Part shown: positions 61,109 through 64,000 of the stretch, piece after piece
Numbering within the stretch: position 1 is the first letter of the stretch
How the letters are laid out: the number at the start of each line of letters is the position of its first letter
Assembly (NCBI GenBank): GCA_964493305.1
Contig: CAZBLW010000002.1
Span: 76,677-140,676 of the forward strand
Reading direction: 5' to 3'
Origin: an uncultured Gammaproteobacteria bacterium
GTDB lineage: Bacteria; Patescibacteriota; Patescibacteriia; S139-126
DNA length: 64,000 nucleotides
The notes under the pieces: generated by a model
Told to the model about the DNA's origin: nothing
The model's database searches: none
The model's input: only the letters and a program-made list of their open reading frames with translations
Program-made: the position numbers and the translations under genes

Positions 61109-62986
61109 ATGGACGAAATTTTCAAAATATACAATTCACTCTGCACTTCATATGCTGATAAAAAGGCTCTTATCAAGAAGCTTTATAGTTTTTTTACGAC
61201 GAAACCAGAAATTGAAGATTCTAGAGATGACTTCCTGTACAAGAATTTAAAAACCGGAAATAATATAGACCCTTTAAAAATCTTCCAGTTGATTGGGCTT
61301 GTTCACCAGAAAAGCAAAGAAACAGAAAAAATAGTTAACACTGACAAAAGAAAACATTTCGGAATTTACTACACGGATTATTCCATAGCTCGATTGATAG
61401 CTAAGGAAAGTTTAAGCGGATCGGAAATTGATAAGATTGCAGAATATAAATTTCTTGAGCCGTGTGTTGGGGTAGGAATTTTTATTATTGCCTATTTAGA
61501 CGAGGTATTAGACAGGTTGAAAACGATTAACAAAAAAGTCGTACAAAAAATAATTAATCAGATATATTTTGCAGATATAGACGATGAAGCGATTGATATT
61601 CTTATAAACATAATTCCTCACTATATAAGGTCTAAATACGGTATTAAGATTACTGTACTATCGGAAAATTATTACAAGGGCGATGTCCTTTTCGAGGGTA
61701 AAGACAACGAAATTAGTAAGGTTAATTTGAAAGAAGTATTCGGGATTAACGATGGTTTCGATGTTGTTTTAACCAATCCACCATACAAGCTTTTAAAGGC
61801 AAATGGAAATAAATATAGAAATGAACTAAATGAGAACAAATATGCGCTTGATATAAAAAAGGTTATCGACTTTGTTAAGAAAAATAAAGTATATCAATTC
61901 AACCAAGGCACTCTTAATTATTACAAGATTTTTCTTGAGGAGATACTTGAACAATATACCCATTCTAATAGTAAAATCGGGGCTATTATTCCGATAACTC
62001 TTTTAAATGATAAGCAGAGTGAACTTTTGAGAAAAAGGATAATAAATAAATATAAATTACTGAAGATTTATATTATTCCGGAGAAAAATGAGTTTTTCCC
62101 AGATATTTCACAAGCTTTTTGTTTCTTTGCTCTTGATAAAAGTAATCCCGGAAATGTTATTAAAATAAACCCCCGAGTAGTTAGCTCCCAGGACTTTAAA
62201 AATGAAGGGGTTGAGGTTAGTGTTAGCCATATTGAAAAGATCAGCGATACGGCACCTATTGTTATTGAAAATGAGATCGGTTGGAGGATTCTAAAAAAGT
62301 TGAGTGTATTACCGAAATTAGGCACACTAAACTCAATTTGCAATGCAAGGGGTGAACTTGACTTAACACTCGACAAAGATTTTGTAACGAAGAAAAAAAC
62401 GTCCCTTCCGCTTCTTAGAGGAAACAACGTCAGTGAATTTTCTTACTCTGCTGGCGAGTACTACACTAACGAAAAGTTCATATCAAAATTAAGTGAAAAA
62501 CAAAAATACATTCTCAGAGAGAGAATCGTATGCCAACAAATCTCTAATATTCACCTGGAGAAACGTCTGAAATTTACAAAGATTCCCGGAAATGTAATTT
62601 TAGGAAACTCTTGCAACTTTTTAACTTTTGAAGAATCTCTATTTAAAAATCAGGACGTTAGCTTAGATTATCTGTTGGGTGTGCTGAATTCTTTGCTGTT
62701 AAATTGGAGGTTTAAAGTCACAAACTCTAATAACCACATCAGCAATTATGAACTTGCCGAGCTTCCGATTGCAATCCCATCAAAAAACGACAAAAGGGAG
62801 ATTGAAAAACTCGTACATTCAATAAAAGATAAAGGAAGGACTGAAGACATATATAAATTGAACCAGAAAGTTTTTGATTTATATGGTTTGGATAAAGAGG
62901 AGGTCGATTATATTCTCGGCAAGCACAAAAAGGCGTTGGAATCGTTTTTAAGCGTTCGAAGTCCACAATTAGTTTATGGTGCATAA
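61109..62986 (+). CDS. N6-adenine (or N4-C) DNA methyltransferase, gamma-class (Eco57I-like), with a C-terminal target-recognition region
   Basis: Motif X HFGIYYTDYSIARLIA, motif I LEPCVGVGIF, motif IV VVLTNPPYKLL. 625 aa. No nuclease domain was recognised. Confidence 0.7.
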   Translation: MDEIFKIYNSLCTSYADKKALIKKLYSFFTTKPEIEDSRDDFLYKNLKTGNNIDPLKIFQLIGLVHQKSKETEKIVNTDKRKHFGIYYTDYSIARLIAKESLSGSEIDKIAEYKFLEPCVGVGIFIIAYLDEVLDRLKTINKKVVQKIINQIYFADIDDEAIDILINIIPHYIRSKYGIKITVLSENYYKGDVLFEGKDNEISKVNLKEVFGINDGFDVVLTNPPYKLLKANGNKYRNELNENKYALDIKKVIDFVKKNKVYQFNQGTLNYYKIFLEEILEQYTHSNSKIGAIIPITLLNDKQSELLRKRIINKYKLLKIYIIPEKNEFFPDISQAFCFFALDKSNPGNVIKINPRVVSSQDFKNEGVEVSVSHIEKISDTAPIVIENEIGWRILKKLSVLPKLGTLNSICNARGELDLTLDKDFVTKKKTSLPLLRGNNVSEFSYSAGEYYTNEKFISKLSEKQKYILRERIVCQQISNIHLEKRLKFTKIPGNVILGNSCNFLTFEESLFKNQDVSLDYLLGVLNSLLLNWRFKVTNSNNHISNYELAELPIAIPSKNDKREIEKLVHSIKDKGRTEDIYKLNQKVFDLYGLDKEEVDYILGKHKKALESFLSVRSPQLVYGA

Positions 62987-64000
62987 TCATACAACATATC
63001 CTCTCAGTAAAAATGACCTACGGATGGTCAAATCTGTTCCGGCTGGTGGTAATTGGCAAAATATACCACCGGACATCCCATCAAAAAGATTGGAACAGAT
63101 TCGAAAATCGGGCGGTAGAACAACTTTGTATGGCCGCCTGTCTTTTGATAAGCCAAGTTATACTATAACGACCTATTTCAATCGTCCGGGTAATGGTACT
63201 TACATACACCCCACTCATGATCGCGTTATTAGTGCAAGAGAGGCGGCTAGATTTCAATCATTTCCTGATGATTATATCTTTCTCGGTTCGAAAACATCTT
63301 TATGTAAACAAATAGGCAATGCCGTTCCACCCCTGCTCGCATTCGCAATAGCAAAACAAATAAAACAGAAATCTAAAACAAAAAATCTTCTTGATTTATT
63401 TTGTGGCGCAGGTGGATTGAGTCTTGGTTTTCAGTGGGCTGGTTATAAGGTAGTAGCGGCTAATGACAATTTTAAACAAGCGTGTGATACGTATAGGCTA
63501 AATCACAAAAAAACCCTTCTGATAGAGGGAGATATAACTGATAATGGTGTTCAGAGTAAATTATTGAAGATTTCTAAGGATGCTAAGGTAGATATTATAG
63601 TTGGTGGACCACCATGTCAGGGATTTTCGCATGCCGGCAAAAGGATGATAGATGATCCACGTAATTTCTTATACAAAGAATTTGTAAAAATTGTGCGGGA
63701 AATAAAGCCGAGAGTCTTTCTAATGGAAAACGTTGAAGGGATATTAACTATAAATAACGGCAAAACATTTAACGAAATTAGGGATAATTTCCAAAAATTG
63801 GGTTATAAAGTTGCCGGGCATAAAATGCATGCCGTAAATTTTGGCGTACCCCAGAAAAGAAAGAGAGTGGTCATAATCGGGACACTAAAAGGAAATCCTG
63901 AAGATTATTTCCCACTGCCATTAACAAGAGAAGAGCGTGATTTTATCACAGCAAAAGATGCTATAGGAGATTTAGTAGAGATTGAAGCAAACAACGATAA
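62976..64000 (+). CDS. C5-cytosine DNA methyltransferase with permuted motif order (IX-X region first, then I, IV, VI, VIII), 3'-truncated by the window
   Basis: ATG at 62976 overlaps the stop of the N6-MTase. The N-terminus RLSFDKPSYTITT...DRVISAREAARFQSFPDDYIFLGS...KQIGNAVPPLLA is motif IX/X-like. Then DLFCGAGGLSLGF (I), GGPPCQGFSHAG (IV), ENVEG (VI), QKRKR (VIII). Confidence 0.65.
   Translation, partial: MVHNHTTYPLSKNDLRMVKSVPAGGNWQNIPPDIPSKRLEQIRKSGGRTTLYGRLSFDKPSYTITTYFNRPGNGTYIHPTHDRVISAREAARFQSFPDDYIFLGSKTSLCKQIGNAVPPLLAFAIAKQIKQKSKTKNLLDLFCGAGGLSLGFQWAGYKVVAANDNFKQACDTYRLNHKKTLLIEGDITDNGVQSKLLKISKDAKVDIIVGGPPCQGFSHAGKRMIDDPRNFLYKEFVKIVREIKPRVFLMENVEGILTINNGKTFNEIRDNFQKLGYKVAGHKMHAVNFGVPQKRKRVVIIGTLKGNPEDYFPLPLTREERDFITAKDAIGDLVEIEANND

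What the first reader, a model, noticed from the sequence alone, without database searches (positions are those of the whole stretch)
61109..64000. Overlapping methyltransferase pair: gamma-class N6-MTase plus a C5-MTase whose motif IX/X region precedes motifs I-VIII
The C5-MTase reading frame, starting at 62976, begins with an unmistakable motif-X-like segment (ISAREAARFQSFPDDYIF.GS....QIGNAVPP). Only afterwards come FCGAGG (I), PPCQ (IV) and ENV (VI). This is a circularly permuted or rearranged architecture, seen directly in the sequence. No restriction endonuclease is visible inside the window, so this could be an orphan MTase pair or an RM system whose REase lies downstream.
Basis: seen in the sequence. 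Interest (0 to 1): 0.5.

Follow-up and report, generated by a model that had tools for sequence, protein, structure and literature searches.

The report
Type IIS restriction system, permuted methylase
The two overlapping methylase genes are real and the second one is truly circularly permuted, but this is the known design of the Alw26I/Eco31I/Esp3I family of restriction-modification systems, and the matching restriction enzyme gene lies just past the window end.

Summary
ORF 61109-62986 is a gamma-class N6-adenine methyltransferase (M1). An ORF starting at ATG 62976 overlaps it by 11 nt and encodes a C5-cytosine methyltransferase (M2). In M2, part of the variable region and motifs IX-X come before motifs I-VIII.

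Residues 137-333 align to M.HaeIII 2-188, and residues 83-131 align to M.HaeIII 273-322.

An identical public contig (L001) extends the window. There M2 is complete at 373 aa with no second IX/X. A convergent 392-aa gene follows and matches Pfam RE_Alw26IDE (423 bits).

The locus is therefore a three-gene Type IIS restriction-modification cassette of the Alw26I/Eco31I/Esp3I family. Natural circular permutation of the m5C methyltransferase is a published property of this family.

M2 is colinear with the characterised enzymes. It is 50% identical to M.BsmAI and M.Alw26I, and 46-47% identical to M2.Eco31I and M2.BsaI. An indel signature and a tree favour GTCTC specificity; this is an inference.

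The same cassette, with identical gene overlaps, recurs in unrelated flanks, mostly in Patescibacteria-like contigs.

Verdict: a new, uncharacterised member of a known kind, of low interest.

The parts
61109..62986 (+). M1: gamma-class N6-adenine DNA methyltransferase, 625 aa. Motif X-like GIYYTD at 61361-61378, motif I EPCVGVGIF at 61457-61483, motif IV NPPY at 61775-61786, and a C-terminal TaqI_C specificity domain at residues 434-554.
   Evidence: Pfam Eco57I (2.6e-11) and TaqI_C (1.2e-9). NCBIfam TIGR02987 'Alw26I/Eco31I/Esp3I family adenine MTase' at E = 2.4e-97 and 326.8 bits, below the 353.5 cutoff. PADLOC fused-MTase profile PDLC03237, positions 52-618. Motif coordinates.
62976..62986 (+). 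The 11-nt overlap ATGGTGCATAA between the M1 stop codon and the M2 start codon.
   Evidence: An 11-nt M1/M2 overlap also follows from the called-gene coordinates in L083, L084/L085 and L086/L087 (M1 ends at 6011, M2 starts at 6001).
62976..64000 (+). M2: circularly permuted C5-cytosine DNA methyltransferase. The first 341 of 373 codons are in the window; the gene ends at L001 5981, equivalent to window position 64097.
   Evidence: Pfam DNA_methylase at 2.9e-78 in two stretches. Swapped-order alignment to M.HaeIII. Full-length colinear BLASTP matches to M.BsmAI, M.Alw26I, M2.Eco31I, M2.BsaI, M2.BcoDI, M.Esp3I and M.BsmBI.
62976..63221 (+). N-terminal part of the variable (target recognition) region of M2, residues 1-82. 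It includes the KS-GGRTTLYG segment that lacks the 5-residue insertion of the 6-bp recognisers.
   Evidence: Alignment with the sequences of S5 Dataset of PMC5944983.
63222..63332 (+). Motif IX (RVISAREAARFQSFPD, 63222-63269) and motif X (QIGNAVPP, 63309-63332) of M2.
   Evidence: Residues 83-131 align to M.HaeIII 273-322.
63396..63866 (+). Motifs I to VIII of M2: I LFCGAGG at 63396-63416, IV GGPPCQGFS with the catalytic Cys at 63603-63629, VI ENV at 63726-63734, VIII QKRKR at 63852-63866.
   Evidence: Residues 137-333 align to M.HaeIII 2-188.

Best explanation
The finding is the modification half of a three-gene Type IIS restriction-modification cassette of the Alw26I/Eco31I/Esp3I family (BsmAI/BsaI/BsmBI).

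**Components**
- M1 is a monomeric gamma-class m6A methyltransferase.
- M2 is a separate m5C methyltransferase. Its polypeptide starts inside the variable region, so part of the target recognition region and motifs IX-X precede motifs I-VIII.
- R is a 392-aa endonuclease of the RE_Alw26IDE (His-Me/HNH) family. It is encoded convergently just beyond the window end, at L001 5965-7143, and overlaps the M2 tail by 17 nt.

**Mechanism (inferred from the family)**
The recognition site is asymmetric, so each methyltransferase can protect only one strand. M2 methylates a cytosine in the GTCTC strand, and M1 methylates an adenine in the complementary GAGAC strand. R cuts unmethylated DNA a few bases to one side of the site.

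**Specificity (inferred)**
The most likely recognition sequence is the 5-bp GTCTC rather than GGTCTC or CGTCTC.

**What is shown and what is not**
- Shown: gene structures, permutation, family assignment of all three proteins, and conservation of the cassette.
- Inferred: which strand and base each enzyme modifies, the recognition sequence, the cleavage position, and activity.
For: **Permutation**
- One search gives the alignment to M.HaeIII in swapped order.
- Searches show M2 colinear over its full length with all characterised natural permuted C5-MTases: 50% identity to the M.BsmAI and M.Alw26I C5 domains, 46-47% to M2.Eco31I and M2.BsaI, 44% to M2.BcoDI, 45-47% to M.Esp3I and M.BsmBI, and 34% to M.BssHII.

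**Complete gene**
- In L001, which is 100% identical to window 58117-64000, M2 is 373 aa.
- It ends about 75 residues after motif VIII with no second IX/X.

**REase**
- Pfam RE_Alw26IDE at E = 3e-126 and 423 bits, against a cutoff of 23.1.
- TIGR02986 at E = 4.5e-117.
- PADLOC REase_II at 2.6e-125.

**M1**
- TIGR02987 (Alw26I/Eco31I/Esp3I adenine MTase) at E = 2.4e-97, covering profile positions 1-507 of 523.

**M1 plus M2 together**
- They map end to end on one fused-MTase profile: PDLC03237 positions 52-618 for M1 and 655-1002 for M2.

**Cassette conservation**
- The order M1 > M2 < R, with 11-nt and 17-23-nt overlaps, recurs in L083, L084/L085 and L086/L087 among unrelated neighbours.
- For L083 and L084, nucleotide homology starts 10-24 nt before the M1 ATG. 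For L084 it ends about 6 nt past the R start codon; for L083 the match stops just inside R, about 20 nt short of that codon. L086 matches only within M1 and M2.

**Literature**
- Natural permuted C5-MTases are M.BssHII, M.Alw26I, M2.Eco31I, M.Esp3I, M2.BsaI, M2.BcoDI, M.BsmAI and M.BsmBI, all permuted in the variable region (PMC5944983).
- Eco31I/BsaI use a gamma-MTase plus a separate m5C-MTase, whereas Esp3I/BsmBI use a fusion (PMC3874165).
- M2.Eco31I methylates the inner C of GGTCTC on one strand (PMC3526304).

**Specificity**
- M2 shares the 'S-----GGRTTLYG' gap with the three GTCTC enzymes (Alw26I, BsmAI, BcoDI).
- It joins the BsmAI/Alw26I clade in a neighbour-joining tree.

**Fold**
- The AlphaFold2 model of the 90%-identical P0001 has pTM 0.88.
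- Its best Foldseek matches are M.HaeIII and M.HhaI.
Against: - **Curated cutoffs not reached.** Neither NCBIfam family model reaches its curated cutoff: R scores 391.9 against 443.85, and M1 scores 326.8 against 353.5. This is a divergent sub-branch.
- **Short REase.** R has 392 aa against a Pfam profile of 507 positions and matches in two stretches. Some N-terminal material of the type enzymes is missing.
- **No site depletion.** GTCTC is not depleted in the 64-kb window: 37 sites against 46.8 +/- 6.5 in shuffles and 33.4 from a Markov model. No 6-bp variant is clearly avoided. Genome composition therefore gives no support for the predicted site.
- **Weak basis for specificity.** The prediction rests on one indel and an unbootstrapped tree of 13 sequences.
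- **No activity data.** No biochemical or methylome data exist for this locus.
Confidence: 0.9

Rival explanations
1. The family is the same but the recognition sequence differs. The system recognises a 6-bp variant (GGTCTC like Eco31I/BsaI, CGTCTC like Esp3I/BsmBI) or a new extension of the GTCTC core, not plain GTCTC.
For: Identity to the GGTCTC enzymes (46-47%) and the CGTCTC enzymes (45-47%) is only slightly below that to the GTCTC enzymes (44-50%). In the N-terminal variable segment, M2.Eco31I scores 62% against 61-66% for Alw26I and BsmAI. R and M1 fall below the curated family cutoffs.
Against: M2 lacks the 5-residue insertion that all listed 6-bp recognisers carry before the G-(S/R)-R-(S/T)-T-Y-Y-G segment. 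It also branches with BsmAI/Alw26I. The specificity of R and M1 could not be assessed, because no reference sequences were at hand.
Confidence: 0.3
2. The methyltransferase pair is in effect an orphan. The endonuclease is inactive or decaying, and the two methyltransferases persist for another role or as a remnant.
For: In the related loci L086/L087 the REase is split into ORFs of 335 and 102 aa, so decay does occur in this family. R is shorter than the family profile.
Against: In the contig that continues this window, R is one intact 392-aa ORF. The same length (392-393 aa) is found in L083 and L084/L085. It matches the family profile at E = 3e-126. A near-consensus promoter-like site (TTGTCA-17-TATAAT, 11 of 12) lies just upstream of its start.
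Confidence: 0.07
3. The permuted order is an artefact. Either assembly fused the 3' end of one C5-MTase gene to the 5' part of another, or the IX/X segment belongs to a separate small gene.
For: None found.
Against: Two independent assemblies are identical. There is one uninterrupted ORF, and stops fill the other forward frames. The 120 best homologues have the same length and full coverage. The protein is colinear with biochemically characterised permuted enzymes. No second IX/X follows motif VIII.
Confidence: 0.01

Closest known systems
BcoDI, Eco31I and BsaI Type IIS RM systems (a separate M1 gamma-m6A MTase plus an M2 permuted m5C MTase)
   Same: These systems also use two separate methyltransferases, a gamma-class adenine enzyme and a circularly permuted C5 enzyme (PMC3874165, PMC5944983). 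M2 is colinear over its full length with M2.Eco31I (46%), M2.BsaI (47%) and M2.BcoDI (44%). The endonuclease belongs to the same Pfam family.
   Different: Identity is only about 45%. M2 lacks the 5-residue insertion of the GGTCTC enzymes. R is shorter than the family profile. Close relatives of M2 that carry a name are from Patescibacteria-type bacteria. The type strains are, from my own knowledge, E. coli, Geobacillus and Bacillus.
M.BsmAI and M.Alw26I (GTCTC), bifunctional m6A-m5C fusion methyltransferases
   Same: These are the closest characterised sequences to M2, at 50% identity, with the same indel state in the variable region and the same clade. M1 and M2 map consecutively on a fused-type profile.
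   Different: Here the two domains are separate genes with an 11-nt overlap in different reading frames. They are not one polypeptide.
M.BssHII, the first natural circularly permuted C5-MTase described (Xu et al. 1997, as cited in PMC5944983)
   Same: It has the same topology, with IX-X before I-VIII and the N-terminus in the variable region.
   Different: Identity is only 34%. It has a different variable region, and the cassette here has a different partner MTase and a different REase family. From my own knowledge, BssHII recognises a palindromic site.
Canonical-order C5-MTases such as M.HaeIII and M.HhaI
   Same: They have the same fold and catalytic motifs. Many genome loci encode canonical-order relatives in which the part matching M2 residues 133-373 comes first and the part matching residues 1-132 follows directly.
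   Different: The order of the two segments is swapped.

Membership tests
Alw26I/Eco31I/Esp3I-family Type IIS restriction-modification system | Restriction endonuclease of Pfam family PF09665 (RE_Alw26IDE) | tested here: met
   L001 5965-7143(-), 392 aa: E = 3e-126, 423 bits against a gathering score of 23.1. PADLOC REase_II at 2.6e-125. The gene lies outside the window, on a contig 100% identical to window 58117-64000.
Alw26I/Eco31I/Esp3I-family Type IIS restriction-modification system | REase reaches the curated NCBIfam cutoff of TIGR02986 (restrict_Alw26I) | tested here: not met
   391.9 bits against a cutoff of 443.85, at E = 4.5e-117. This is a clear homologue but a divergent, shorter sub-branch.
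Alw26I/Eco31I/Esp3I-family Type IIS restriction-modification system | Adenine methyltransferase of NCBIfam TIGR02987 (met_A_Alw26) | tested here: inconclusive
   E = 2.4e-97. Residues 82-608 cover profile positions 1-507 of 523, but 326.8 bits is below the cutoff of 353.5.
Alw26I/Eco31I/Esp3I-family Type IIS restriction-modification system | m5C methyltransferase (or domain) with the variable region plus motifs IX-X moved in front of motifs I-VIII, homologous to M.Alw26I, M2.Eco31I and M.Esp3I | tested here: met
   Single colinear BLASTP alignments at 44-50% identity to seven characterised members, using sequences retyped from S5 Dataset of PMC5944983.
Alw26I/Eco31I/Esp3I-family Type IIS restriction-modification system | Recognition of an asymmetric GTCTC-core site, with m5C on one strand, m6A on the other, and cleavage outside the site | not testable with these tools
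   This needs methylome sequencing and cleavage mapping. Site counts in the window show no depletion and are uninformative.
Natural circularly permuted C5-MTases (topology H/J of PMC5944983) | Motif X precedes motif I, the new N-terminus lies in the variable region between VIII and IX, and there is only a single copy of each motif | tested here: met
   Motif order is IX (83-98), X (112-119), I (141-147), IV (210-218), VI (251-253), VIII (293-297), and the protein ends at 373. The M.HaeIII alignment is in swapped order.
Gamma-class N6-adenine DNA methyltransferases | AdoMet-binding motif I precedes the catalytic NPPY motif IV, and the target recognition domain is C-terminal | tested here: met
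   Motif I is at residues 117-125, NPPY at 223-226, and the TaqI_C domain at 434-554. There is no PDB sequence match at E <= 0.01. PMC3874165 lists M1.Eco31I as a gamma-MTase.

The most novel reading that the evidence does not exclude
The lexA homologue lies 24 nt upstream of M1 and is co-oriented with it. It might be functionally tied to restriction-modification in this lineage in one of two ways. It could be co-transcribed with M1 and M2, so that methylation follows the SOS state. Alternatively, the 3' flank of lexA could be a preferred landing site for RM cassettes. A second genome (L079) carries an 80%-identical LexA followed directly by a different RM set. Separately, the short 392-aa endonuclease could have an altered specificity or cleavage geometry within the GTCTC family.
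Probability: 0.1. Interest if true: 0.4.

Novelty: new member of a known kind. Interest (0 to 1): 0.15.

Why it matters
The result adds little beyond cataloguing.

- **What it shows.** The BsmAI/BsaI/BsmBI-type Type IIS design, including its permuted m5C methyltransferase, is widespread as a compact mobile cassette of about 4.2 kb in Patescibacteria-like genomes.
- **Possible practical use.** These short (392-aa) endonucleases and their methyltransferases could be a source of new GTCTC-core Type IIS enzymes for Golden Gate-style cloning.
- **Possible use for protein evolution.** The many natural permuted and canonical-order relatives found could serve as material for studying how circular permutation arose.

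None of this is surprising to a specialist.

Tried and rejected
1. **Site avoidance.** I counted GTCTC and all one-base extensions in the window, and in the window plus the contig extension. No depletion appeared, so composition gives no specificity clue.
2. **PDB sequence searches.** The REase gave only chance hits at E > 0.3. M1 gave none at E <= 0.01. No solved relative is detectable by sequence.
3. **Original papers.** Bitinaite 1992, Xu 1997 and Jakubauskas 2007 are not held in the library. I relied on later open-access papers that cite them.
4. **Structure prediction with the exact full-length protein.** I modelled the 90%-identical P0001 instead. Foldseek aligns only the I-VIII half, as expected for a permuted chain, so the model adds little.
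5. **The genome-contig scan.** It was dominated by the generic GGPPCQGF pattern. It returned mostly canonical-order C5-MTases and none of the close Patescibacteria relatives. It was useful only to contrast the two gene orders.
6. **lexA as part of the system.** I rejected this. lexA is absent next to the cassette in L083-L087, and homology with the closer loci (L083, L084) begins only 10-24 nt before M1.
7. **Tandem-duplication intermediate with a second IX/X after motif VIII.** I rejected this because the protein ends at residue 373.
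Full report
**Observation**

The region holds two overlapping forward genes.
- ORF 61109-62986 encodes 625 aa.
- An ORF opening at ATG 62976 stays open to the end of the window, giving 341 codons. The other two forward frames are full of stops.
- The overlap is 11 nt, ATGGTGCATAA.

The second protein reads in this order:
- a variable segment, residues 1-82
- motif IX, RVISAREAARFQSFPD, residues 83-98
- motif X, QIGNAVPP, residues 112-119
- motif I, LFCGAGG, residues 141-147
- motif IV, GGPPCQGFS, residues 210-218
- motif VI, ENV, residues 251-253
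- motif VIII, QKRKR, residues 293-297

Pfam DNA_methylase matches at E = 2.9e-78 in two stretches. phmmer against PDB sequences gives the direct proof of permutation. Residues 137-333 align to M.HaeIII 2-188, and residues 83-131 align to M.HaeIII 273-322, the C-terminus of that enzyme.

**Extending the window**

A look-up of the exact M1 protein found two public assemblies.
- L001 (SRR9016294) is 100% identical to window 58117-64000 and continues for another 8,986 bases.
- L002 (SRR35272830) is 100% identical to window 60281-64000.

In L001, M2 is complete at 373 aa. It ends about 75 residues after motif VIII, with no second IX/X. It is therefore a true single-copy circular permutation with the N-terminus inside the variable region. 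It is not a tandem or fused gene.

A convergent 392-aa gene follows directly at L001 5965-7143 and overlaps the M2 tail by 17 nt. Its matches are:
- Pfam RE_Alw26IDE at E = 3e-126 and 423 bits
- NCBIfam TIGR02986, 'Alw26I/Eco31I/Esp3I family type II restriction endonuclease', at E = 4.5e-117
- PADLOC REase_II at 2.6e-125

This Pfam family is classified as a His-Me finger (HNH) nuclease family (PMC5714182).

**M1**

- M1 carries Pfam Eco57I and TaqI_C domains.
- Motif I lies at residues 117-125, NPPY at 223-226, and the specificity domain at 434-554. This is the gamma order.
- It matches NCBIfam TIGR02987, 'Alw26I/Eco31I/Esp3I family ... adenine-specific DNA-methyltransferase', at E = 2.4e-97 over nearly the whole profile.
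- One PADLOC profile of a fused methyltransferase (PDLC03237, 1036 positions) is matched by M1 at positions 52-618 and by M2 at positions 655-1002. The two genes together therefore equal one bifunctional enzyme of the fused type.

**Comparison with characterised enzymes**

PMC5944983 lists the natural circularly permuted C5-MTases: M.BssHII, M.Alw26I, M2.Eco31I, M.Esp3I, M2.BsaI, M2.BcoDI, M.BsmAI and M.BsmBI, plus 18 putative ones. [quoted passage not shown]

Its S5 Dataset gives their aligned sequences. I retyped twelve of them and compared them with M2. Each gives one colinear alignment over essentially the full length:

| Enzyme | Identity to M2 |
|---|---|
| M.BsmAI, M.Alw26I | 50% |
| M2.Eco31I, M2.BsaI | 46-47% |
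| M2.BcoDI | 44% |
| M.Esp3I, M.BsmBI | 45-47% |
| M.BssHII | 34% |

PMC3874165 states that Eco31I/BsaI systems use a gamma-MTase with a separate m5C-MTase, and that Esp3I/BsmBI use a fusion. PMC3526304 describes M2.Eco31I as a sequence-permuted C5-MTase that methylates the inner cytosine of GGTCTC on one strand. The locus therefore has the published architecture of this family, in its two-gene form.

**Likely specificity (inference)**

- In the variable segment, M2 has 'KS-----GGRTTLYG'. It shares this 5-residue gap with the three GTCTC enzymes (Alw26I, BsmAI, BcoDI).
- The GGTCTC enzymes have 'SYAEGKGSRSTYYG' there, and the CGTCTC enzymes have 'MSAERGVVRTTYYG'.
- A neighbour-joining tree puts M2 with BsmAI and Alw26I.

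I therefore favour GTCTC, at roughly 0.6 within the main explanation. Site counts do not help. GTCTC occurs 37 times, against 46.8 +/- 6.5 in shuffles and 33.4 from a Markov model, and ranks 419th of 512 pentamers by observed/expected ratio. No one-base extension is clearly depleted.

**How it most likely works**

The site is asymmetric, so each monomeric methyltransferase can bind in one orientation and protect one strand.
- M2 methylates a cytosine in the GTCTC strand.
- M1 methylates an adenine in the GAGAC strand.
- R cuts unmodified DNA beside the site.

The strand assignment follows the title and citations of Bitinaite et al. 1992, as quoted in PMC3874165 and PMC3526304. It was not tested here.

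The 11-nt overlap suggests translational coupling of M1 and M2. A promoter-like site (TTGTCA-17-TATAAT, 11 of 12) lies just upstream of R on the minus strand. Both points are inference.

**The cassette as a unit**

Close homologues of M2 (63-90% identity, 357-383 aa, 94-100% coverage) fill the top 120 database hits. Where they are named, they come from Parcubacteria, Pacebacteria, Roizmanbacteria, Minisyncoccia or 'Patescibacteria group'.

Three of these homologues were looked up on their contigs.
- All show the order M1 (625-627 aa) > M2 (373-375 aa) < R.
- All show an 11-nt M1/M2 overlap and a 17-23-nt M2/R overlap.
- The neighbours are unrelated: CTP synthase, a phage-like N6_N4 MTase with DUF5681, and enolase.

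For L083 and L084, nucleotide homology to L001 starts 10-24 nt before the M1 ATG. For L084 it stops about 6 nt past the R start codon; for L083 it stops just inside R. L086 matches only within M1 and M2. The mobile unit is therefore the bare three-gene cassette of about 4.2 kb.

**Surroundings**

The window is low-GC (about 35%) chromosomal DNA. It encodes PNPase, LeuRS, RecG, a ComM-like ATPase, T4SS-like genes and three tRNAs.

Upstream of M1 is a lexA homologue (TIGR00498, 160 bits, above its cutoff). It is not part of the cassette.

Beyond R, L001 carries phage-like genes:
- two ParB_N-N6_N4 methyltransferases
- a small HTH protein
- a large terminase
- a large serine recombinase

**Structure**

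An AlphaFold2 model of P0001 (90% identical) has pTM 0.88 and mean pLDDT 83.5. Confidence is lower in residues 1-80. Foldseek's best hits are M.HaeIII and M.HhaI, with only 170-200 aligned columns. This is expected when a sequence-order-dependent aligner meets a permuted chain.

**Caveats**

- R and M1 fall below the curated NCBIfam cutoffs.
- R is about 100 residues shorter than the Pfam profile.
- No activity data exist for this locus.
- Reference sequences of the type REases and M1 enzymes were not available here.

**Verdict**

It is a new, uncharacterised member of a known kind, and interest is low.

Noticed in passing
window 60452-61084 (+); L079 695-1321: A full-length lexA homologue (LexA_DNA_bind plus Peptidase_S24; TIGR00498 at 160 bits, above its cutoff) ends 24 nt before M1 and is co-oriented with it. 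In another genome (L079), an 80%-identical LexA is followed within 8 nt by a different RM set: a canonical-order C5-MTase, a 473-aa ORF, a second C5-MTase, and a Vsr-like gene. The 3' flank of lexA may be an RM insertion hot spot in this lineage.
   Followed up: partly
L086 7106-8499 and L087 7106-8499: In a related cassette the RE_Alw26IDE endonuclease is split into two ORFs (335 and 102 aa), while both methyltransferase genes stay intact. This looks like decay of the REase towards an orphan methyltransferase pair.
   Followed up: no
L001 7488-14520 (just beyond the window end): A phage-like block lies here: two paralogous ParB_N-N6_N4 DNA methyltransferases (438 and 442 aa), a small HTH (terminase-small-like) protein, a large terminase subunit, and a large serine recombinase.
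   Followed up: partly
L001 7273-7367: A hairpin (inverted repeat) of about 95 nt lies in the 340-nt gap between the REase gene and the first ParB-methyltransferase gene. It is followed by a strong terminator-like stem at 7375-7400. Rfam gave only chance hits to miRNA hairpin models.
   Followed up: partly
window 56920-60359 (-): Three overlapping minus-strand genes are divergent from lexA. The 746-aa protein has no Pfam family and a weak PADLOC OloA hit (E = 1.7e-5). The 319-aa protein scores exactly at the DUF4365 gathering cutoff. The 86-aa protein has no match. This may be another defence-type module.
   Followed up: partly
window 25907-32977 (+) and 4256-8704 (+): Two very large ORFs (2356 aa and 1482 aa) sit in a small-genome, low-GC context. 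Nearby are T4SS-like genes: a TraG P-loop protein at 40139-42031 and a T4SS pilin at 43264-44673. None were analysed further.
   Followed up: no
genome loci L015-L082: Many canonical-order C5-MTases from diverse phyla have a C-terminal third that is 35-50% identical to M2 residues 1-132. It sits directly after the part matching residues 133-373. They are natural unpermuted counterparts and could be used to study how the permutation arose.
   Followed up: partly
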